From NCBI RefSeq assembly GCF_001186125.1, contig NW_014039659.1:1-33202 (forward strand): a stretch of DNA of 33,202 bases, given 5' to 3'. This document shows, piece after piece, positions 1 to 33,135 of the stretch. The stretch comes from Sphaeroforma arctica JP610 (Eukaryota). How positions within the stretch are numbered: the stretch's first letter is position 1; each line of letters begins with the position of its first letter. The translations under genes were made by a program, and so were the position numbers. The notes under the pieces are model-generated. The model was not told the DNA's origin, ran no database searches, and worked only from the letters and a program-made list of their open reading frames with translations.

Positions 1-945
1 TTATATTATATATTTGATTATATATTACATTATATATACAATATGAGCATGTATATATAACATAAAATTGAATATAGATTATACTATATACATAATATAT
101 TTATGTATATATAATATATAATAATATAATTGATTATAGATTATATTCTATATATTATATATGTATGTATATATAATATATATTTGATTATAGAATACAT
201 AGCATCTATAATTGATTATATATTAAATTATATATGTGTATATAATATATATTTTAAATCTATAAATAATATATGTATGTTTATATATATTATATAATAC
301 AATACAATTAATCATAGATTGTTCTATATATACAATATATGTATGTATATATAATATATAATTGATTATAGAATATATAGCATCTATAATTGATTATATA
401 TTAAATTATATATGTGTATATAATATATATTTTAAATATATATATAATATACTTTTGTATATATATTATATAATACAGTACAATTGATCATAGATTGTTC
501 TATATGTACAATATATGTATGTATATATAATATATAATTGATTATATATACAATATATACAATATATCCTATATATGTATGTATATATAATATATAATTG
601 ATAATAGAATATATATCATATATTATCGACTATAGATTAAATTTTATATATAATATATGTATGTATATATTATGTATAATTGATTATTGATTCTATTATA
701 TATATAAAATATGTTATATATATATACATATATATATGTATACATAAATAAATAATTGATTATAGATTTATATTATATATATATATATGTGTGTGTGTTT
801 GTGTGTACGTATATAATATATAATTGATTATGTATTATATAATTGATAATATAGGTCATATATATAATATAATTGATTTTAGATTGTAGATTTTAGATTG
901 ATTATATTATTGATTACAGATCTTTATTGTATTTTGGGTGTATAT
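1..945. repeat. Degenerate AT-rich satellite / (TA)n-rich tract flanking the retrotransposon
   Basis: Recurrent motif AATTGATTATAGA...TATGTATGTATATATAATATAT throughout. There is a near-identical block of about 180 bp (about 160-340 versus about 340-520). Confidence 0.9.
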
Positions 946-1062
946 AGTCACGGCGTGTTACATGTTTATTCTCAAACTCTATAACAGTTAAAACATATGC
1001 AGCTATATCACTGCCTTCTTTAGCTTCAAAATATATACAGCATATGCATGCATCGCACTTAA

Positions 1063-1830
1063 TTATCGCCACTTGGATGTGAAACCAGGCGCCTCATCCA
1101 GCATGGTTTTTATAGCTAAAGCTGTGACATGTCGATAAACCGTCCCCGTTTCCAACTCATATAGGGACGTGCCTATTACCCGTAATGTAGTGGCACTGTA
1201 GTTTATAAAGAATGTGGAGATTTCACTTCGCCATTCATGCATCAACCCCACGTCCAGTGATCTTTTTACCACATCAATGCCGTGCGCAAAAACATCTCTA
1301 TGCGATCATTCCCCCCATGCTCACCTTTAGAGACAAACCATATCTTAGCACCGCGACTCGTCAAATAGGTTGAAAACTCATCACTAATAAACGGGCTGTC
1401 TTGGTCCAGCACGTATTCCTTATTGTGCCTCCGTGGTTTAAGCTGAGTTTGAAAGAGTTTAATGACTTCCGCGGACATGTGTTCGTCGTCTCGTAATAGA
1501 GTGCCAAAGGCCCGCGGAGTACACCTGTCCTGGGCCGCTAGTATATATTTTTAGCCACCCTTATCCTCGTCCAACTCCAAATAGTCCATGTTGATCTGAT
1601 CGCACATAGCAGCAGACCGAACCGGTTGCTGTAGTAGTCCCCTAGTAGGCCCTGTAGATAACCCACACGTACGCACTCCGTACAACTGTCGGTGATTGGC
1701 TTGATAACATCCACCAGAATGTTCCGTCTATACTTATCTTGTGCCAATGCTCTCAAACGGTTAGTTTGTATGCTGGTGCCAAATCCATAGCGCGTTCAAA
1801 GTTGTTTTGGGTGGCACCAGTTTGCCCATT
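1063..1830 (-). pseudogene. Retroviral-type (rve) integrase, disrupted
   Basis: Zinc-finger region: KLVPPK..WHQHTN*P / ..KPITDSCTECVR. Catalytic core: CDQINMDYL (first D), GG*KYILAAQDRCT, YVLDQDSPFISDEF (second D), HGGNDRIEMFLRT (E). This is followed by HEWRSEISTFFINYSATTLRVIGTSLYELETG, which resembles W...YN.T.H..TG.SP.EL..G. Confidence 0.9.
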
Positions 1831-2773
1831 GCTGTCACACATCTTCAACCGATCAATGCGGCTAATAACCGCTTTTTCCGTTTTTGACATGTTTCGTAGC
1901 GACGTTTTCCGCAACCGGCGACGGTTATGAATGTGAATGGGCGCATCCGTGGTGACGTCGTCTGAAATCGTATACCAAACCTCCGGCGGCGCCACTCGCG
2001 GCTTCGTCCATGTACGTGGGCCTACATCCTCTACTTCCAATGCATTCTCCATGTACTGCGCTGCTTGGAATGCGGCGACCTTTTCACTTGTGCCAATCGA
2101 CACCTCTTGAAATGCCAAATGAATCCGAGGAGCTTCGCAATCATCATCAGCGCCCAACAGTCCAATCTCAATATAACCTACCTTGTGCGGCGTTGGCTGT
2201 GCCAAGTGCTCTTTCGTGGGCGCCACAGTGCTCTCATCACTACTCGCTGGCTGCAGGGCAGAAAATTTATTGTCCGCTTGCATCCAAGTCATGGCAAAAG
2301 AATGCACACCATCTGCCTCGTCTGCTGAATTATCCTGAACGACCTCCAAGATATCCTGTCCCTCCCGACTCTCCAGTGCCCGGGACATGTCTGTTTGTGC
2401 CAGTTCCTGTTATACCTGCCCAAGTGCTTGAGACATGTCCGTTGGGGCCAACTCTGTACTGTTCACGTGCCGTGAGTTTACCGGTGACAACGGTGACATC
2501 TTTCCAGGTCCGAACTTCCACGTCGCTTGTTTCTGCGCCCCTTGCGCCACATTTGACGGTGAAGGGACTCGCTTGGTGCTGAACCATTTCCATGTTCTCG
2601 GTTCTTCGCTGCCCTGATCCGTTGCAACCGCCGATGTCATTGGTGTTGACACACAACAGGGCTGTAGTGGGTATTCTATACGATGTAGACTTGTTGGCGC
2701 CCGTTGTTTCCCTACTGCATGCCAAAATCGGAGTGGAAGGTGTGGTGGCGTAGGTTTACCACTAACACGGCAA

Positions 2774-3149
2774 TCACGTATATTCCCAAGGAGGTAAACC
2801 CAGGATCGTCCGTCCTCGGTGAAGAAATGTATCCTCGCGATGCGGTATCACCAGTGGTATTCCTTGCGTCATGTGGACGAGTAACGGGAACCAAACGGCC
2901 TTAGGTCGATAAGGTACCACCGCCGCTACATACGTATTCGGCATATGTTCAACCGATTTCAAGAAAGGAAGAAAAAAATCGGCCACGAGGAGTTCATATA
3001 TGCTCGAATATGGCGAAGGTCAACCCAAACGCATCCGTGCCCCAGAGGCCTGAGCCATCTTTGGTACAGTAAACCGCCATCACACGGCCTTCATGGCCAG
3101 CAAAGAGTTCAACGTCAAAGGAGCCATAGAGCTGATCAATCAAGTACAC
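2774..3149 (-). pseudogene. Dam-like / DIRS-type DNA N6-adenine methyltransferase domain inside Pol, with two frameshifts
   Basis: Joined frames read VYLIDQLYGSFDVELFAGHEGRVMAVYCTKDGSGLWGTDAF / VDLRHIRAYMNSSWPIF / LPFLKSVEHMPNTYVAAVVPYRPKAVWFPLLVHM...PPWE. This fits the pattern FDxDLFA ... YC ... DAF ... YxNPP(W/F) ... VVPxxPxAxWFP. The catalytic NPPW position reads NSSW (2983-2994). Confidence 0.8.
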
Positions 3150-3389
3150 CTAGGTAAGATTAAAAGAGTAGCTGTCCGGGAACCTGTACCGTGATTTGCT
3201 ATACACTAACACATCTGTATCGTCCTGAACTATATTCACTTTGTCATGACCCCACGTGATTCGTTGTTGCCGCGGCGCAAAAGATAGTGCACGCGTTGGT
3301 TGACTAACCGACTACACTTCTTCCGTAACTTTACCAAAACCTACACGACTTGCCCCTTTCTGTTGAAGTAGCTTGTCTGTGTGGTTCAT

Positions 3390-4260
3390 TGAACGCGAGA
3401 AGCAATTACCGAACACTGTGAGTGGTCGTTGAACATATCGCACGTCCATTACTACTTCCTTAATAGTGTTGAGAGCGCGGATAATTATGCTGTTCTTGGA
3501 ACTCTATTCCTGAAAGTAGGCTTCTGGGTTCGCTATGAAATTTAATAGAGGTTTGTGGTCTGTGACCATAAGCACTAATCGTACAGATCTGCGACAAAGT
3601 ACAAACGCTTTCCTCGCACTAAATGTGCAACCGACCATCTCTCTATCCGTAGCCCCATAGTTTCTTTGTACGGGGTTGAGTTTACTCGAACAAAATGCTA
3701 CCGGGAAGAGGAATATATACTCGCCGATAGTGATGTCCAATCCTTTGGACTATCCTCGGTTACTACCGATATGTCAGAGTCGTGCGCAAGTGAACCATTC
3801 TGCGTCTTCGTCATGCCCGCAAGTGAACCACCCTGCGCTGCATCCTGTGGGTTTCCAGGTGTCACAACAGTGAACCACTCTGTTGTAAGTGCGGTTTTCC
3901 GCGCCCGACTGTCGTATCACTGATCACTGTGCGCTCCCGTTGTGCGTTTTCTATGTTCGTAGCCGCGTTTCGTGGCGTGAAAGGTTAAACCCCTGGTTAA
4001 AAAATGGATTATAGACGATCTCTGGTTTGTTTGGTTCTTCATAAATGGATTCTTCCTGATCTGAAATCACTAACCTCGGTGTTTGTGAGTGAAGTGTCAG
4101 AGGTGATAGACCTAATGCCTCTCTATACCTCCGGCAGTCTGCTACACAAGACTGTTCTGTGTCCCATTCCTCGGCTCCTGGCCGGGGTATCTGTACAGAT
4201 ACTGCAGCCCCAACCCCGACATTGCACGCGTCGGGCATGATTATTAGCTGTTGGTGTGGG
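3390..4260 (-). pseudogene. Ty3/Gypsy RNase H, split by a large insertion
   Basis: LIIMPDACNVGVGAAVSVQ (about 4190-4250), then FPVAFCSSKLNPVQRNYGATDREMVG..VTDHKPLL (about 3540-3710), then VRYVQRPLTVFGNCFSR, which corresponds to the ADALSR motif. Confidence 0.9.
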
Positions 4261-4446
4261 AGAGGCTCATAAATTTTCATTCTCCGCATAATCAACGCTA
4301 CAGCTTCTGAAGGGCAGCTTATTGGGGTGCCTTCCATGAGAACACCGCCCCCTTCTTCGTCAGATCCGACATAGGGACCGCAATAGATGTCATATTCAGT
4401 ATGCACCTGTTCTACCAAGACATCACTGCTGTAAGGAAATTAGATC

Positions 4447-5260
4447 TTATCGGTTGACCGGTGCTGGTCTGTCAAACAACGCCTGTGTCCACTCTTTCAT
4501 TATCATAGATGTATTTCCCACTTGTTCCCGACCATAAAACACTGTCGGAATGTCTGCTAGAAGCATTATCTGAGTTTTTATTTGTTGTTGCAATTGTATG
4601 TTCTCTGCGACGCATATGTCTACAAACTGAATCACGTGCTGCCAATGTCTCTCCAAGGCGTCAACTACCGATTATGTATGTCGCCTGTGTGTCACCGGCT
4701 TGTTATCACCAGCTTGTTGCCACCATTATACAATTTAGGGTTTGGGGCTTCCGTCTCGGTATAATGCTGCATATCAAAGGATTCATTTTCGATCCCTTCC
4801 TGTAGGCATGTGGGTCTATGGAGTTTTCCGTCCGCCGTCACATATGTTAGGTAGTCCCTGGATCCCTGTTCTAACTCCAGTTGATGGTACGACGCTGCCA
4901 GGTCTGCCACTGTCGTTATCAACGCGTTTGTTCCGTGGGTGCCCATGTCCTCATCTTACGGTAATTGGTACGCCACCCTCACCATTTGCTTGTTTACTTC
5001 GATGTAATTAATGGTAATCGCATAATCCTTTAGATTTTTCGGTTCCACCCGTGGGTCTTTCCGTACCGCTTTAACTGAGCTGACATACCGGCTGAAGCGA
5101 TTTTCTGCCTCCGCTTTTCCTTGGCGATGTAGCTCATTGATTTTCTTGATGTCCACTTTCTTCAACAGCGGGTCCTTAGTGAAATATATTGACCGAGATG
5201 GTCCTGCATCTTCCTTAGGCTGCAATATGACTTGGTCATTTCTTATAAATTTGGTGTGTC
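4447..5260 (-). pseudogene. Reverse transcriptase, disrupted
   Basis: YVSSVKAVRK..DYAITINYIEVNKQMVRVAYQLP, ADLAASYHQLEL..SRDYLTYVT..GKLHRPTCLQEGIEN, and ERHWQHVIQFVDICVAENIQLQ. The YxDD position reads HTGD at 4680-4691, directly after a stop codon. Confidence 0.9.
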
Positions 5261-5433
5261 TCGGATCATAGCGCGCCTGTAAAAATTTATCTTTCACTGC
5301 ATCGACCTCCTCATTTGTCTTTCCTAGCAGTTTCCCAACTCCCTCTAAATGCGAAAAGTCATACTCATCCAGTAGCTTCCCATCCAAATCCGGGACGCGC
5401 TGTTCATCTATCTCCGACCACGATTTACCCTGT

Positions 5434-5832
5434 TTAAGTATGAGGAAATTCATGTCCTGTACCTGCGGTATCTGTAGTATAAACGTGGGAGGGATAGTAC
5501 TTTGGTTCCCAGTTTGTTCCTAGTAAATTGCCTCTCATGACGTCAAATCCCACTAAAACGTCACAGTCTTGTGGCAACCACTCCGAGATCAGAAATAAAA
5601 TCTCACGCGTTTCGCAGAATGTCGGCATGCCGTCGGCTACCCTTACTTGTAGAATTAACGTTGCTGTTGTGCGGTGTGTAAGTGCTGCTTCTCCACTGCC
5701 TCCAAACTCTCTGATGTGAATTGGGTTAGTCGCAGTGATAGTTAACTGATGCTTCTCGCGTAGTCGACCAGCATCGTTGCCGGTCCAGCATCGTTGCCGG
5801 TCTTGCTCCCGTATCGTTGTAGATGAAAGCAT
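5434..5832 (-). pseudogene. Retropepsin-like aspartic protease, disrupted
   Basis: It lies between the Gag knuckle and RT. The C-terminal motif FLISEWLPQDCDVLVGFDVM resembles ILGxDxL. The candidate active site TMLVDY is in an alternate frame, next to a 17-bp tandem duplication (5768-5801). Confidence 0.65.
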
Positions 5833-6028
5833 GCTCGTCTTCGCATAGCGCTTCAGTAACTGGTCCAGTTCACTCTTGTACTTCTACTGTCGCGTCCCTT
5901 TCATCGTCGAGCTAAGCTGTTGCCACTGATTGTCACCTAGGGGGTTCCTCTGCTCTGAACGTAACGTGTTCCTGTTCTTGTGCGGCGATGGGTCCACTGC
6001 TCTGCTTCTGTTCCGCTGCCTCCCCCTA

Positions 6029-8358
6029 TCATAAATGTTTTTCCTGTGGGCACGTATTTTGGTAGTGACCCGGTTTACAGCAATTATGGTATACCGGGCA
6101 TACAGAGCCCATATATCTCACATTACACTTACTGTACTGGGGTGCCGGACCTGGCGACATGGACCTCCTCGTGTTGCCATGTCTGCTGTCCCTACCACAC
6201 CGATCATTTCTGCTCACAGGCCTACTAGAGTCCCTACTGTACGAGCTCCCATGATCTCTGCTATTGCTCCGCATATATCTGGCCTGAGGTCGAGGCTGTC
6301 GGTCCGGGGTGCGTCTGTCGGACAAATATCCATCCGTTACCTGCCTATTATTCCCATATTGTGACTTGACTAACTGTGCTGCATGTGCTTCTGCTCTCCC
6401 CGGCCCAAATGTGTCGAAGATTTCCGGCATTGTGGTACGACGGTTTCTAGGAAACGCCGCATTCATAAATGTGCGTCCTGCCGTTTGTAGCTCTTTTAAA
6501 GCCTTGAGCAGCTGTGGTGTAACTATGTTATAAATAGATGTAAGAGCTATTCGCAACTGTGTGTCCTTCGTAACTGCATGCAGCATAGTTTGCGCTGCGA
6601 AGTAACCTCCTCGCGACGCATCCTGTCGTAGTTTTCGTCGATGGCTTCCCAGGGTATGACATGTACTGGTGCTTTCTCCTGGGACCCAGATTGCCTGTAT
6701 GGTGGCTTGTTCTGTTGAAAATCACTATCACCATATCCAAATTGATTGACTGGGTGGCGCAGCTTGGTTTTGCCCTACAAGCTGTCTACATTGTACATAT
6801 TTCTATTCGGGAACCACACCTTGTGTTGTGGTACGTAGATATATGCCTCTCGCTGATTCGTCGTCCGGCACCAACGCCCTGCTGCACTGAAAATAAAATC
6901 ATCCCCATAGTCAATGATTTCTCCCTGCTGGCTGACCACATGATGTGCTGTACGAAGTCCCCAGTGCACCCCTTCCCATCTCGATGTTCCCCCGCGCGGC
7001 TTAATAGACACTGGCGCCGTTCGCACCATCGTCAAATGTGCAATAATCTCTACATCGGGTGCTGGGCCGTCCGGCAATAATGACTCGTCTCGTTACCACA
7101 GGATATCATCCCAAGCTCGCTTCTCCTGAATTGTGCTCGGTCCCTGCAATCGTTATCGTGGCGCGATACCCTAAACCTAGGTGGTGACCGTCGCACTACC
7201 GGACGGTGTGGTGACAGCGACCTTGACCTGCTGCTTTGTCGCGACCGTGTCCGGGAACTGCTGCGTCGTTGCGAACTCGAAATGGTACCCTGTAGTGAGC
7301 ACGAAGCGTGTCGCCTATTCCGGCTGGCACTTATCCCATCGGCGGGGTTGAGAGTGTCTCGAAGATCCCCTTGACCCTCCCCTTGACCCCTTTGACCCTC
7401 CCCTTGACCCCCTGGGGTGATTCTCGAATGGTGAATTTGTGGACCTCGCCCGATGTTACTCCCTTCATCATCCCCCCAGGATTCTCGTCTCCGCTTGTTC
7501 GTCTTCCTAGTTGCTGCATCCTCTGCATCCTCTCTCTGTTCGCCGTCCTCAAGTTCTTCTTTCTGCTCGTTGATCTTCGTGAAAGCCGTTATGGTGGCCT
7601 GTATATCTAGCTCCTTCTCTGCATACCGCTCCTGGCCTTCACTATCAATCTGTATTAACTTTTCTGGTATACCCTTCAACCCTCTACTCAACCAAAGCGG
7701 TGTCGTCGGTCGTTGCCGTGGTGTCGTTCGGGGCTGCTCAGGTGCACGAAATTGTGCTTGCATTCTTAAATTAGCTCAATAGATCTCTACCGGCGTCATT
7801 CCTGAGCCTTCAGCACACAACATGCTCAGCTTCATAGGTGCGTTACGCAACGCCTTTTGTGTGCTGCTTTGCGGATTGAGCTCATTTTCGGTGGCGTATA
7901 TATGACACGCCCCGCTGCAAATTCTGCTAACTCATTATCATTACCGCTCGGCTCCATGCTGCCGCTGTCACATTGTCACTCATGTCTGTGGCTTTCGCAT
8001 GCAAATCGACCACGTACAACGGTACAAACAGATACGACGGTGCGCCAAAGTTTTCCAACAACACTCGCTCCACATCCAGTACCCCTGGGTCATTTGGCAG
8101 AAGTGGGTACAACTCGATCAGCACGGACTGGTCTAAGTATTCGTACATTATTTCCAATATTGCCTGCTTCGGAGACAAACCTTTCATGGCTTGGGCACAC
8201 ACCTTGCCCCCTCTTAAATCTCCGCCATGGTCGCAGAAAACAAAAAAAACAAAAAAACGCCTATGGGATCTTGCTTGGCTGCCATATACACCTTCGAAGG
8301 TGACATCGTGTGCCGAGAGATCGATCAAAAACAACTCACGTCCTCTTCTCGAGTCCAA
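6029..8358 (-). pseudogene. Long Gag/ORF1 region with a C-terminal zinc knuckle, fragmented into several ORFs
   Basis: Consecutive minus ORFs at 7927-8358, 7050-7763, 6775-7077 and 6029-6586. The last ends YHNCCKPGHYQNTC, a CX2CX4HX4C knuckle with the first Cys reading Tyr, immediately upstream of the protease. Confidence 0.65.
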
Positions 8359-8496
8359 AAAGAAAAATTAAATGTGTCTTCTCAGCTCCTCGACGTCTGT
8401 GGTTGATGCCGTCAAGGCTAATTTAATCGTAGTTCGAGTTTATATAATCGTTACACTAGGTTTCTTTATTTTAACTGTTAACTAGATGTTAGCTAT

Positions 8497-8592
8497 GACG
8501 TTCCAACCTAACCAAGTGTAAAAGTGGGCTGACGTTCCCTCAGTCCCACTCCTCATATGTCCACTCCCGATCCACTACTAGGCTGTGATGCA
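8497..8592 (-). other. Candidate 5' LTR remnant (TG...CA, 8592-8517) followed by a candidate primer-binding site (TGG at 8514)
   Basis: The minus strand reads (TA)n-TGCATCAC...TTTTACA-CT-TGGTTAGGTTGGAACG upstream of gag. No matching second LTR is seen in the window. Confidence 0.35.
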
Positions 8593-8850
<258 letters not shown>

Positions 8851-9215
8851 ATAATTACAATTAAAAACTTTCGCATTCATTCGAAATTACATACATGCAG
8901 CATATTTACATTTATGTAAACGGTATTGTTTTTGGAATTCCACACCACTTTGTATATTTGTTTTAATATTCAATTTTCCGCACAACTTACTTTGAGCCAT
9001 GCAGTGCTTCGAAAACATTTGTTCACAGAACAATTACAACTCACCCCCCCCAACGTATTCGGGTAAGGTTGAACTAAACTCTCGCATAGAGCAAGCATTG
9101 CTCAATTTGCTCTTACACCTACAGAATGCAAATCTTGTCCAGTAGCTACTAATCGAATCGTCGGCTGTTAATAGAACATCTGCGGACACCCAATCAGATC
9201 TTCCGTTGGATAAAA

Positions 9216-16486
<7,271 letters not shown>

Positions 16487-17068: not shown

Positions 17069-18505
17069 GTGTGTTATCTTTAGCTGGCCTGTACAATTTG
17101 TGTAAATAATGTGCAATGCGGAGTTGTGAAGTGATGTGAAAGCCTGAACGACAGAAGGCCGAAGGGTTCGTAACTTCATAGTGTATAGTTTCTAACAACA
17201 TGTACAAAGGTACTTCAAACAACGCGTCGCTTCAGAATACTTTGAATTAATGATGATGGTTTACTTCTTTTTCTATAAACAATACACTTTCAGTGACTCG
17301 GCCGACATGCCGTTCAACGCTACCAGTTACAGTAGCGGTAGATAACATTTTCTTCCGTAATTGTAGCTTTGCTATACAACCCCCTTGAAAGTACCGCCAC
17401 ACGACACACAGTCGCATATCAGTAATATGATTTGTAGCATCGTGGTGGGTACTCAGGCTATAGCAGAAAAATTGAATTGAGAGACTATGAGGTGCATAAT
17501 AATCATCATGGGGGAACAAGCCTAGCCATTGGCAACCTTACCACAAGCAAGTTTGGAAACAATATTCAAAAGGGACATATATAGTAGACTCCAATTCGTC
17601 GTATGTTAGCGAAAGGAAACAATCCCTCTATTGTGAAGTAGTCTGCATCTATAAACGCTTATTTTTAGGAGAATATCATAGTATAGGATAACAGGGTTTA
17701 GGGTTTTTCATTGCATTTTTTTTTCCAGGCGTATAAATATGTACCTATAGGCGTGCACATATGCATACAATACGTGTCTCGCTTGTGCCCGAGCACGAGC
17801 TATTGACATCAGCAGTTCACCATACAGCTGCAGTATTTGAATATATAATCATAATCTATCAGTTAGTTTTGTTCTACAACTCATAAAGATACAATAGGAG
17901 GTTATGAGAAATGTGTGGACATATCTTTTTTAGTCGGTGGTGAGGCTATCCGCGGTATGCCTTCATCCCTTGAGCACATATTGATCGGCTCTGTGTCTGC
18001 CACCTGTCGAGCTGTGGGTGTGAACTGCGAACCCGTTAACTATTATACATGTTATTGTACTGGCAGCTTTGATTAACACACGCCGAAATAAGACAGCGAG
18101 TGACAGTGTACCTACCGAATGTCCTGGTTGTATTCAAGTACAACATCTGAGCTGAATTGTTAATGCGCCTCAGCAATGAAGAAATATACAAAAGCATCAA
18201 TGATGAGCGTTGAATGGAGAGCCTGTAGCGGAGATGTAGATGTAGATATATATATATCGCTTGCCAAGAATTCGAATTACATTATGAATATTCACCGCGA
18301 AGTGATCTAAACAGCTGACTACAGCCTAAAGTCTATTATTAACACTTACAAAAAAACACTACAGACAGGCAAGGTCCGTGAAGAAACAGTAAAGAAAATA
18401 ATAATAGTAAGAATAAGTCATAGTATGTTGGCGGTGCCAATTAACTACAGACCACAGCAAGCATTTAGTGTATTTACATATCTGAGAATAAAATATTAAT
18501 AGTAA

Positions 18506-18680
18506 AAATAAGTCATAGTATGTTAAAATAAGTCATAGTATGTTAAAATAAGTCGTAGTATGTTAAAATAAGTCATAGTATGTTGAAATAAGTCATAGTT
18601 TGTTAAAATAAGTCATAGTATGTTGAAATAAGTCATAGTATGTTAAAATAAGTTGTAGTATGTTGGCGGTGCCAATTAAC
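18506..18680. repeat. Minisatellite, 20-bp unit (AAATAAGTCATAGTATGTTA), about 8 copies
   Basis: Directly visible. A related single unit with the same flank (TATGTTGGCGGTGCCAATTAAC) occurs at about 18412-18445. Confidence 0.95.
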
Positions 18681-18889
18681 AATATACCAAGGCAAGCCAG
18701 TAGTGTATATACATAGCAATCGAGTATTCCGCCTGGTTACATAGACGAGGTGTTTATTCTGACCGCCTAGGTACGCCCAGCGCACTTACAGTGGTCACTT
18801 CTCATCTGTTCTCGTGGGTCGGCCGTAGCTGTTACACAGAACAGGCATGGGCAGACAATACTATCGACAGCAGCGTACAGTCCGTCATC

Positions 18890-19532
18890 TCCAATCAGTC
18901 AATTCTAAGCTACACGTGACGCTACTGTGCTTTCCCTATCCAACAATAGTCGCTGTTTCGAATCAGTCAAGCTAAGCTACACATGACTTTCCTTATCCAA
19001 CAGGAGTTACTGTTTCATATCAGTCATGCTAGTTACACATGACTTTCTTTATCCAACAGTAGTTACTGTTTCATATCAGTCATGCTAAGCTACACATGAC
19101 TTGCCTTATCCAACAGTAGTTACTGTTTCATATCAGTCATGCTAGCTACACATGACTTTCCTTATCCAACAGTAGTTACTGTTTCATATCAGTCATGCTA
19201 AGCTACGCATGACTTTCCTTATCCAACAGTAGTTACCGTTTCATATCAGTCATGCTAAGTTATACATGACTTTCTTTNNNNNNNNNNNNNNNNNNNNAAC
19301 AGTTAGTTACCGTTTCATATCAGTCATGCTAAGTTATACATGACTTTCTTTATCCAACTGTAGTTACTGTTTCATATCAGTCATGCTAAGCTACACACGA
19401 CTTGCCTTATCCAACAGTAGTTACTGCTTCATATCAGTCATGCTAAGTTACACATGACTTTCCTTATCCAACAGTAGTTACTGTTTCATATCAGTCATGC
19501 CAAGGTACACATGACTTTCTTCATCCAATAGT
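18890..19532. repeat. Tandem repeat, 56-57-bp unit, about 11 copies, each unit with two small hairpins
   Basis: TATCCAAC recurs at 18937, 18994, 19050, 19107, 19163, 19220 and onward. The array contains a 20-N gap at 19278-19297. Confidence 0.95.
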
Positions 19533-19555
19533 CCTCACTGCTAATCTCGGGTATC

Positions 19556-19695
19556 AAATGAACCATTTAACAGCGTATCACTGGCCGTTAAAATGAACCA
19601 TTTAACAGCGTGTCACTGGCCGTTAAATTGAACCATTTAACAGCGTGTCATTGGCCGTTAAAATGAACCATCTAACAGTGTATCACTGGCCGTTA
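19556..19695. repeat. Tandem repeat, 35-bp unit x4
   Basis: AAATGAACCATTTAACAGCGTGTCACTGGCCGTTA and variants at 19556, 19591, 19626 and 19661. Confidence 0.93.
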
Positions 19696-20375: not shown

Positions 20376-31875
<11,500 letters not shown>

Positions 31876-33135
31876 CTGAGCGCAACATTGGCCGAGAATC
31901 AATAGATATTCGCAAGAATTTCGGTACCATATAGCCTCAGCGATATCTGCTAAATAAATCGACACTGGTGCGCACAGCCGCACACTCGGCATAAGCTAGC
32001 ACATACTGAGCAAAATACTACAAGGTAAAAATTACAGTGTAAAATTCAATACGAACCGCTTATATACAGGCAACAGAAATACTGAGTGATATGCTCACAC
32101 AGCCACGAGACTAAGGTAAGTTTATATACGCTCAAGACAAGAATACTGAGTAGTCGAATGAGAAGACTGATATATGCGCATCATCCCATTCTGGTGCTTG
32201 GCTGGTGTCTATGAGTAGGTTAGGAGCACTTGCTGTGTATGTGACAGGTGTCTATGAGTAATTCGGGAGCATACGTTGTGTATCTATAATTTGCTTGAAT
32301 ACCGACATTTTTTTTTCTCGGAGTAAAAATTGAACCATGTTCAAAAAAAAAATTGAACCGCCAATATCAAAGTTAAAATCTGCACGGTACAGTACTAAAT
32401 ACAAGTGTGCGCATGACGTCTAATATCTAAAGAATGGGTATATATCGTTCCGAGTTGGATAAACAGCGAGCATGGTGGGGGACTTGTTGTCAAGCAGTGT
32501 TTCAATATGTGCACGTGGTTGTCATGATGTAAAACTAATGCAGAAATCAAGTCCGGAAAGCCAAAAATGATTCTACTTGATCTAATTCACGGCGATACAA
32601 TGTGTTATCTCGATCAAGCCTCAGGGCACATTGAATTGACGCGATTTGACAGCAAACCGATTAGAGATGTGAACCGGTAATGCATCTTCTCTCAGTAGAT
32701 GGTGTTGGAGTGCTAAACTTTGCCATGAAAATAAATTTTGAGATTGTGAACTCAATTTCGCAATCATCATAGTGTCAAAGGCAAATATATACATTCAGAA
32801 CCCCCAACAGCTATACGAAGGTTAGCATATTCAATTCCGATGTCACATACTTTGTCAATCTAGAGAGGCGCTTTAAGGGATTGTATCATAGTAGTACCCA
32901 GTCCATGCATATGATCGTTACTGAACAGCCTGCGTATCGCAAATTATTGAGTCTGCACTCGTATGTGACCATACATTGTCATGAACCCTACTTGAAGCAG
33001 CCGTACCTGAACTTCATGTATCCTACCACTTTATAACACGTTAAAGCTGAAGACATAAAGTCTAGCGCGAATGCTGATTAAACAGGCTCTGCTTTTCAGG
33101 TCATGTCCCCACACACACCCACAAGAATATCGAAT

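What the first reader, a model, noticed from the sequence alone, without database searches (positions are those of the whole stretch)
2774..3149. Ty3/Gypsy retrotransposon carrying a DNA N6-adenine methyltransferase domain between RNase H and integrase
Seen: continuing the RNase H frame through a few stops and two 1-nt frameshifts (about 3025, and the T-run at 2972-2978) gives IDQLYGSFDVELFAG..YCTKDGSG..GTDAF/VDLRHIRAYMNSSWPIF/LPFLKSV..VAAVVPYRPKAVWFPLL..PPW. A DDE integrase follows downstream. Established: the FDxDLFA / DAF / YxNPP(W/F/Y) / VPxWPxxxWFP pattern is that of the phage Dam-like (PF05869-type) adenine MTase found after RNase H in DIRS tyrosine-recombinase retrotransposons. Canonical Ty3/Gypsy Pol lacks it. 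Inference: this is an integrase-using LTR family that captured a 6mA MTase, possibly to mark its own cDNA, mimic host adenine methylation or evade silencing. In this copy NPPW has decayed to NSSW (AAC TCC TCG TGG, two C>T changes from AAC CCC CCG TGG). The ORF track shows only the last fragment, so the domain is easy to miss.
Basis: partly seen in the sequence, partly recalled or inferred. Interest (0 to 1): 0.92.

Follow-up and report, generated by a model that had tools for sequence, protein, structure and literature searches.

The report
Dead Gypsy retrotransposon with Dam-like domain
This is a broken copy of a Ty3/Gypsy jumping gene, likely from the single-celled animal relative Sphaeroforma, whose polymerase carries an extra adenine-methyltransferase-like domain; the design is real, but a 2026 preprint already describes it for Sphaeroforma arctica.

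Summary
On the minus strand (~1000-8400) lies a decayed Ty3/Gypsy element: gag knuckle, protease, RT (best PDB match Ty3 RT), RNase H, a DIRS-type Dam-like domain (2774-3179), a ~330-codon linker and a DDE integrase core. Read through with X at its breaks, the domain scores 87 bits against a profile of non-Sphaeroforma Dam-like domains (shuffles at most 9.8), with NSSW opposite NPP(W/F). Six Sphaeroforma arctica gene models carry parts of it, one joined to RNase H and one behind RT/RNase H-like stretches, so it is a family trait, not a nested DIRS fragment. It is as conserved as RNase H (76-81% against 31-56% in linkers). The architecture is already described: bioRxiv 10.64898/2026.05.21.726589 reports DAM-LTRs, including an ichthyosporean lineage in S. 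arctica, 6mA enrichment on copies and a negative E. coli assay. This scan also noted such elements on other DNA. One correction: none of 4 family copies that show the motif has NPP (NSSW twice, NSPW, NYPW), so loss of the first proline is likely family-wide, not decay of this copy. LTRs were not found. Low novelty.

The parts
6029..8377 (-). 5' part of the element: gag-like region in several broken frames, ending in a decayed zinc-knuckle-like motif (NCCKPGH at 6085-6065)
   Evidence: Sequence; S. arctica P0004 residues 313-402 match 6631-6362; a contig of run X20 is collinear with 4872-8377 at 90-95%. No Pfam hit; the knuckle label is recalled.
5530..5830 (-). aspartic-protease-like region (DTGA at 5815-5804, DVLVGFD at 5562-5542, different frames)
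   Evidence: Motifs seen in the sequence; assignment by recalled motif and position only; no Pfam protease hit.
4498..5333 (-). reverse transcriptase, Ty3/Gypsy-like, broken by stops and frame changes
   Evidence: phmmer against PDB: Ty3 RT 4ol8_A E 7.8e-5 and Ty3 Gag-Pol 7q5b_A E 2.8e-4 are the top 2 of 3 hits; P0004 matches 5333-5052 and 4707-4498. No Pfam RVT_1 hit.
3393..4301 (-). RNase H with a variable insertion (about 3747-4037)
   Evidence: Pfam RT_RNaseH E 7.2e-8, 33 bits; 74-84% identical to P0001 outside the insertion, 31% inside.
2774..3179 (-). DIRS-type Dam-like adenine-methyltransferase-fold domain, broken by a stop at 3152-3150 and frame changes at about 3025 and 2972-2978; motif IV position reads NSSW (2994-2983)
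   Evidence: 87 bits against a non-Sphaeroforma Dam-like profile; alignments; relatives pass the Pfam Dam cut-off.
1800..2770 (-). about 330-codon linker between the Dam-like domain and integrase, mostly in one frame (2 stops in 336 codons, 2760-1753), weakly conserved in sister copies
   Evidence: 49% to P0001, 36% to P0003 over the parts they cover.
1130..1800 (-). DDE integrase: zinc-binding remnant (CTECV 1684-1670) and catalytic core; no chromodomain and no 3' LTR found behind it
   Evidence: Pfam rve E 4.6e-5, below cut-off; motifs located; chromodomain profile no hit; no terminal repeats.

Best explanation
This is a dead copy of a Ty3/Gypsy retrotransposon family, likely of Sphaeroforma arctica, whose pol region carries a DIRS-type Dam-like domain between RNase H and integrase, the DAM-LTR design. 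Shown: domain order, homology of the domain, its presence in sister copies, and its conservation at the level of RNase H. Inferred: in the active ancestor the domain was made as part of Pol, was packaged in the particle and acted in cis on the element's own RNA or RNA-DNA intermediate. I put 45% on the preprint's model (it deposits, or helps seed, 6mA that host AMT1 then maintains, keeping new insertions in permissive chromatin), 45% on a non-catalytic nucleic-acid- or SAM-binding role, and 10% on other roles. This copy makes no protein across the breaks and has no function of its own that I can show.
For: Profile score 87 bits against at most 9.8 for shuffles. Six S. arctica gene models among the 16 hits (names); P0001 joins RNase H to the domain and P0004 has RT/RNase H-like stretches ahead of it, collinear with the window. 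RT closest to Ty3 RT; rve hit downstream; no tyrosine-recombinase hit in six frames. Window against P0001: Dam-like parts 76% and 81%, RNase H parts 74-84%, linkers and insertion 31-56%. Intact PR-RT-RH-Dam-INT-chromo proteins P0007 and P0022 and Pirum gemmata P0014 (RH-Dam) pass the Pfam Dam cut-off. A model of homologue P0010 ranks cap adenosine methyltransferase CAPAM/PCIF1 first (Z 5.3, rmsd 4.0, 125 aligned), then N6-adenine DNA methyltransferases. The preprint describes an ichthyosporean DAM-LTR lineage without chromodomain in Pirum, Abeoforma and S. arctica, with raised 6mA and expression.
Against: No LTRs found. The integrase hit is below Pfam's cut-off, and no S. arctica protein I found joins the domain to an integrase; the link rests on this one collinear copy. 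None of 6 S. arctica proteins scanned matches Pfam Dam, so this subfamily may differ from the one the preprint counted. The structure model is of a homologue and poor (pLDDT 55); Z 5.3 is within the range of common arrangements. The canonical NPP is absent in 4 of 4 copies. The E. coli assay was negative. The host species is inferred from nearest proteins; no genome was held.
Confidence: 0.88

Rival explanations
1. Same element, but the Sphaeroforma subfamily's domain was already catalytically dead while the family was active and was kept as a binding or structural module of Pol (a refinement of the mechanism, not of the identity).
For: First proline of NPP absent in 4 of 4 copies, across both subgroups of the tree; long stem branch of the family (1.44); intact relatives P0007 and P0022 read NIPF and NVPF; Iyer et al. 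(PMC4738411, one passage read) call DIRS MTase domains PCIF1-derived and likely inactive; heterologous assay negative.
Against: Asn and the aromatic residue are kept in all four copies; N-x-P-aromatic motifs occur in active rRNA adenine methyltransferases such as Erm/KsgA (recalled, no call); all four copies are decayed, so independent mutation is not excluded; the preprint finds 6mA enrichment on S. arctica DAM-LTRs.
Confidence: 0.45
2. A DIRS fragment inserted into this one Gypsy copy, so the fusion is a local accident.
For: The domain is typical of DIRS pol (PMC3266345, passages); the copy is old and broken.
Against: The domain continues the RNase H frame; P0001 shows the same RNase H-spacer-domain-linker order at another locus and P0004 a similar one; the S. 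arctica domains form one clade, 100/100; no YR hit.
Confidence: 0.03
3. The RT-RNase H-Dam part and the integrase belong to two different elements joined by nesting or recombination, so the family need not use an integrase.
For: About 1 kb separates domain and integrase; no sister protein found spans both; no LTRs seen.
Against: The first half or more of the linker is shared with sister copies and runs in one frame up to the integrase zinc-binding remnant; RT and RNase H are Gypsy-type; strand and order fit Ty3/Gypsy.
Confidence: 0.08

Closest known systems
Ichthyosporean DAM-LTR lineage (Fernandez-Moreno et al., bioRxiv 10.64898/2026.05.21.726589, 22 May 2026; whole main text read, figures and supplements not seen)
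   Same: Ty3/Gypsy organisation, DIRS-derived Dam-like domain, no chromodomain, nearest proteins from S. arctica, one of the three species named.
   Different: The preprint reports NPP in almost all DAM domains and screened by DAM profile at E 1e-5; this subfamily shows NSSW, NSPW, NYPW and no Pfam Dam hit. In my 149-column tree it does not group with the Pirum domain, but a joint clade is not rejected (p-AU 0.15). Whether this exact family is in their set I could not see.
Chromovirus-type DAM-LTRs (preprint's chlorophyte clade; here unnamed proteins P0007 and P0022)
   Same: PR-RT-RH-Dam-INT order; non-canonical first proline (NIPF, NVPF); similar domain C-terminus; weak grouping with the Sphaeroforma family (82/81).
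   Different: They end in a chromodomain and have only a short spacer before integrase; the window has a ~330-codon linker and no chromodomain.
DIRS1-like retrotransposons (RT-RH-MT pol plus tyrosine recombinase; PMC3266345, passages read)
   Same: The same MT domain directly after RNase H.
   Different: The window has a protease-like motif, Ty3-like RT and DDE integrase; no YR and no inverted terminal repeats found.
PCIF1/CAPAM and phage Dam family PF05869
   Same: Fold and motif layout.
   Different: Stand-alone enzymes with NPP(F/Y)-type motif; distant.

Membership tests
Ty3/Gypsy LTR retrotransposon | pol order PR-RT-RH-INT | tested here: met
   Order on the minus strand from motifs and hits; protease by recalled motif only.
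Ty3/Gypsy LTR retrotransposon | RT of the Ty3/Gypsy group | tested here: met
   Best PDB matches are Ty3 RT. No RT tree was built; small home-made profiles were too weak to decide.
Ty3/Gypsy LTR retrotransposon | DDE integrase | tested here: met
   Pfam rve E 4.6e-5, below cut-off; acidic triad seen; not recovered by phmmer against PDB or a two-sequence profile.
Ty3/Gypsy LTR retrotransposon | direct long terminal repeats, PBS, PPT, target duplication | tested here: inconclusive
   No terminal repeat in self-blast or local alignment; the copy ends shortly after the integrase core next to AT-rich repeats, so truncation is likely. PBS and PPT not tested.
DAM-LTR (preprint 2026) | eukaryotic Dam-like domain inside an LTR-type pol | tested here: met
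   relatives pass Pfam Dam.
DAM-LTR (preprint 2026) | conserved Asn-Pro-Pro catalytic triplet (reported in almost all members) | tested here: not met
   NSSW in the window; NSPW, NYPW, NSSW in P0003, P0002, P0004. All are decayed copies, and the preprint defines the class by domain content, so this does not exclude membership.
Ichthyosporean DAM-LTR lineage | no chromodomain | tested here: inconclusive
   None found, but the 3' end is likely truncated.
Ichthyosporean DAM-LTR lineage | domain groups with Pirum and Abeoforma domains | tested here: inconclusive
   Not grouped with Pirum P0014 (long branch); joint clade not rejected, p-AU 0.15. No Abeoforma sequence found.
DAM-LTR (preprint 2026) | 6mA enrichment and expression of copies | not testable with these tools
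   No modification data; only contigs could be laid.
DIRS1-like | tyrosine recombinase ORF | tested here: not met
   No such Pfam hit in six frames of 951-8500; decay lowers sensitivity.
DIRS1-like | inverted terminal repeats | tested here: not met
   Self-blast of 881-8600 found no repeat pair.

The most novel reading that the evidence does not exclude
This is a second, long-branched Sphaeroforma DAM-LTR subfamily that a Pfam-based screen misses, captured independently of the Pirum lineage, in which the Dam-like domain stayed under selection after losing the canonical NPP triplet. Together with intact chromoviruses reading NIPF/NVPF, it would show that LTR elements keep the domain for something other than canonical 6mA writing (for example binding their own RNA, PCIF1-like), against the preprint's model.
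Probability: 0.2. Interest if true: 0.5.

Novelty: already known. Interest (0 to 1): 0.2.

Why it matters
As a class, LTR retrotransposons that carry an adenine methyltransferase are a striking case of transposons adapting to 6mA-marked host chromatin, but that point was made in May 2026 with S. arctica as a test species. What this copy adds is small: its family keeps the domain as tightly as RNase H while lacking the canonical catalytic triplet, which bears on the open question whether these domains are enzymes at all.

Tried and rejected
No whole genome was held, so no copy census, dN/dS or LTR search across copies. Pfam on the window's single-frame pieces: no Dam hit. Word-based protein searches were insensitive: 1 hit of 52 candidates, only P0001 itself of 7992, 11 of 6645; no intact Sphaeroforma polyprotein appeared, which is weak evidence. 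Of the 16 hits, I dropped 3: P0006 (read, an unrelated repeat protein) and P0011, P0012 (very long multi-stretch hits, not read). Metagenome scan with P0001: 25 pattern matches, none confirmed. Profile A2 against PDB sequences: 4 hits, none significant. Integrase region against PDB: no integrase among 7 hits. Two- and six-sequence RT/integrase profiles too weak. The 16-residue middle piece alone scores -1.3 bits; its placement rests on its position between the flanking pieces (joined 87.0 against 23.4 plus 49.7). The profile's members were found with P0001's flanking parts, so the score is not fully independent for those parts. No RNA holder listed; two RNA-guess runs gave no contig; neither says anything on expression. 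No copy at 80% or more was laid on the domain itself. CpG is not depleted in the element (0.94), so no sign of methylation-driven decay. LTR search negative.

Full report
Setting. The window is eukaryotic, with introns, microsatellites and assembly gaps. No genome was held. The nearest proteins to the finding are gene models of Sphaeroforma arctica JP610, so the host is likely S. arctica or a close relative; this is inferred. Host genes to the right are a WD40 protein and a JmjC plus PHD-like protein.

Observation. The motif codons are AAC TCC TCG TGG. Contigs from 4 of 4 runs laid on 2700-3300 show no substitution or indel (two may be the source of the window, one has a short hole), so the breaks are genomic.

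What the domain is. The single-frame pieces give no Pfam Dam hit. A search with the last piece found SARC_08162 (P0001), whose gene model joins RNase H to the same domain but skips its middle. A full HMMER scan with that part of P0001 gave 16 proteins: 6 from S. arctica (P0001 included), 1 from Pirum gemmata, 6 others that match Pfam Dam, and 3 that I dropped (one read and unrelated, two not read). Of 12 scanned, 7 match Pfam Dam and 3 pass its cut-off; 0 of the 5 S. arctica ones match. A profile built only from the 7 non-Sphaeroforma domains scores the window's X-read-through at 87.0 bits, shuffles at most 9.8, and sets NSSW opposite NPP(W/F). These 7 were found with P0001's flanking parts, so the test is independent only in part. 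Atlas look-ups with P0001 and P0003 return Dam-, PCIF1- and RT-RNase H-Dam-labelled clusters at TM 0.56-0.83, all under the tool's bar for naming a family. A low-confidence model of homologue P0010 (pLDDT 55) ranks CAPAM/PCIF1 first (Z 5.3, rmsd 4.0, 125 aligned), with type I M subunits, CamA and T4 Dam next; this is supportive only.

What the element is. In order along the minus strand: gag-like region with a decayed knuckle, DTGA protease-like motif (recalled labels), RT whose best PDB matches are Ty3 RT (E 7.8e-5), RNase H (Pfam E 7e-8), a 70-codon spacer, the Dam-like domain, a ~330-codon linker, and an integrase core (rve E 4.6e-5, below cut-off). No tyrosine recombinase hit in six frames, no chromodomain and no terminal repeats; the copy ends soon after the integrase core. 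In run X12, 8 records were laid: the locus itself and partial, mostly under 90% matches from other copies; in run X20 of another organism label one 3246-base contig is collinear with 4872-8377 at 90-95% and does not reach the domain.

Family trait or accident. P0001 is collinear with the window from RNase H through the domain into the linker; P0004 matches gag, RT, RNase H and the first half of the domain; P0002, P0003, P0005 and P0008 match parts of the domain, and P0002, P0003, P0008 also the linker. The five S. arctica domains in the tree form one clade (100/100; 17 rows, P0005 and P0008 left out as short fragments). Against P0001, the domain is 76% and 81% identical, RNase H parts 74-84%, the RNase H insertion 31%, spacer 56%, linker 49%. 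So the domain was kept like an enzyme core while copies diverged. This refutes a locus-specific nested DIRS piece. The tie to integrase rests on this copy alone among Sphaeroforma sequences; unnamed proteins P0007 and P0022 show the whole RT-RH-Dam-INT-chromo order intact.

The catalytic motif. Four family copies show the motif: NSSW (window, P0004), NSPW (P0003), NYPW (P0002); P0001 skips it. None has the first proline, and both subgroups lack it. The simplest reading is that this position had changed before the copies diverged, and only the second proline decayed here; independent decay is not excluded, as all are dead copies. P0007 and P0022, with open frames of about 1200 residues, read NIPF and NVPF, while Pirum P0014 reads NPPF. 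N-x-P-aromatic motifs can be active in rRNA adenine methyltransferases (recalled, no call), so this does not prove inactivity.

How it likely works. Inferred: the active ancestor made the domain as part of Pol and carried it into the particle, where it met the element's own RNA and cDNA. The preprint (whole main text read; figures and supplements not seen) proposes 6mA deposition on reverse-transcription intermediates followed by AMT1 maintenance, reports raised 6mA and expression on DAM-LTRs of S. arctica and Abeoforma, and found no activity in dam- E. coli. Iyer et al. (PMC4738411, one passage) hold DIRS domains to be PCIF1-derived and likely inactive. I weigh enzyme and non-catalytic binding about equally for this subfamily (45% each).

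Comparison and novelty. [quoted passage not shown] My four searches showed no other paper on it in their listings; 'DAM-LTR' occurs in that preprint alone. PMC3266345 (passages) gives the DIRS RT-RH-MT layout; PMC11673190 (passages) added nothing; PMC5890265 was seen as a listing only. Earlier notes of this scan report the same design in another genome, with a lost motif; none concern this genome. Whether this exact subfamily is in the preprint's set depends on supplements I could not see: its proteins miss Pfam Dam and do not group with Pirum in my small tree, though a joint clade is not rejected (p-AU 0.15).

Verdict. Real, correctly spotted, already known as a class and very likely for this species. 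Interest 0.2. The boldest reading left open (20%) is a separate, screen-invisible subfamily that kept the domain without the canonical triplet.

Noticed in passing
window 3747-4037 (-): RNase H is split by a poorly conserved insertion of about 100 codons (31% to P0001); sister copies P0001 and P0004 have longer, repetitive insertions at the same place.
   Followed up: partly
window 1800-2770 (-): A ~330-codon linker between Dam-like domain and integrase with short conserved blocks (TWKW, WMQA-like) shared by sister copies; no Pfam hit.
   Followed up: partly
window 4872-8377: A contig of run X20 (another organism label, RNA guessed) is collinear at 90-95% with several short deletions: a close copy or orthologous insertion in a relative.
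   Followed up: no
window 1013-1080: A second contig in run X12 shares these 68 bases with 3 differences and then diverges; possibly a shared family end or another repeat.
   Followed up: no
proteins P0007 and P0022 (unnamed): Intact RT-RNase H-Dam-integrase-chromodomain polyproteins with NIPF and NVPF in place of NPP(W/F): good natural material for an activity test.
   Followed up: partly
window 7927-8367 (-): A 146-codon open frame at the 5' end of the element, upstream of the gag-like region, without Pfam hit.
   Followed up: no
window about 9200-16100 (-): Intron-rich host gene with WD40 repeats (looks like actin-interacting protein 1; label recalled).
   Followed up: partly
window about 23500-32000 (-): Host gene with JmjC and PHD-like zinc fingers (KDM4-like layout; label recalled).
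   Followed up: partly
window 10264-10803, 10994-11278, 18467-18684, 18918-19578, 22340-22531, 22692-23121, 26126-26445: Tandem minisatellites of 20-86 base units, typical non-coding repeats.
   Followed up: no
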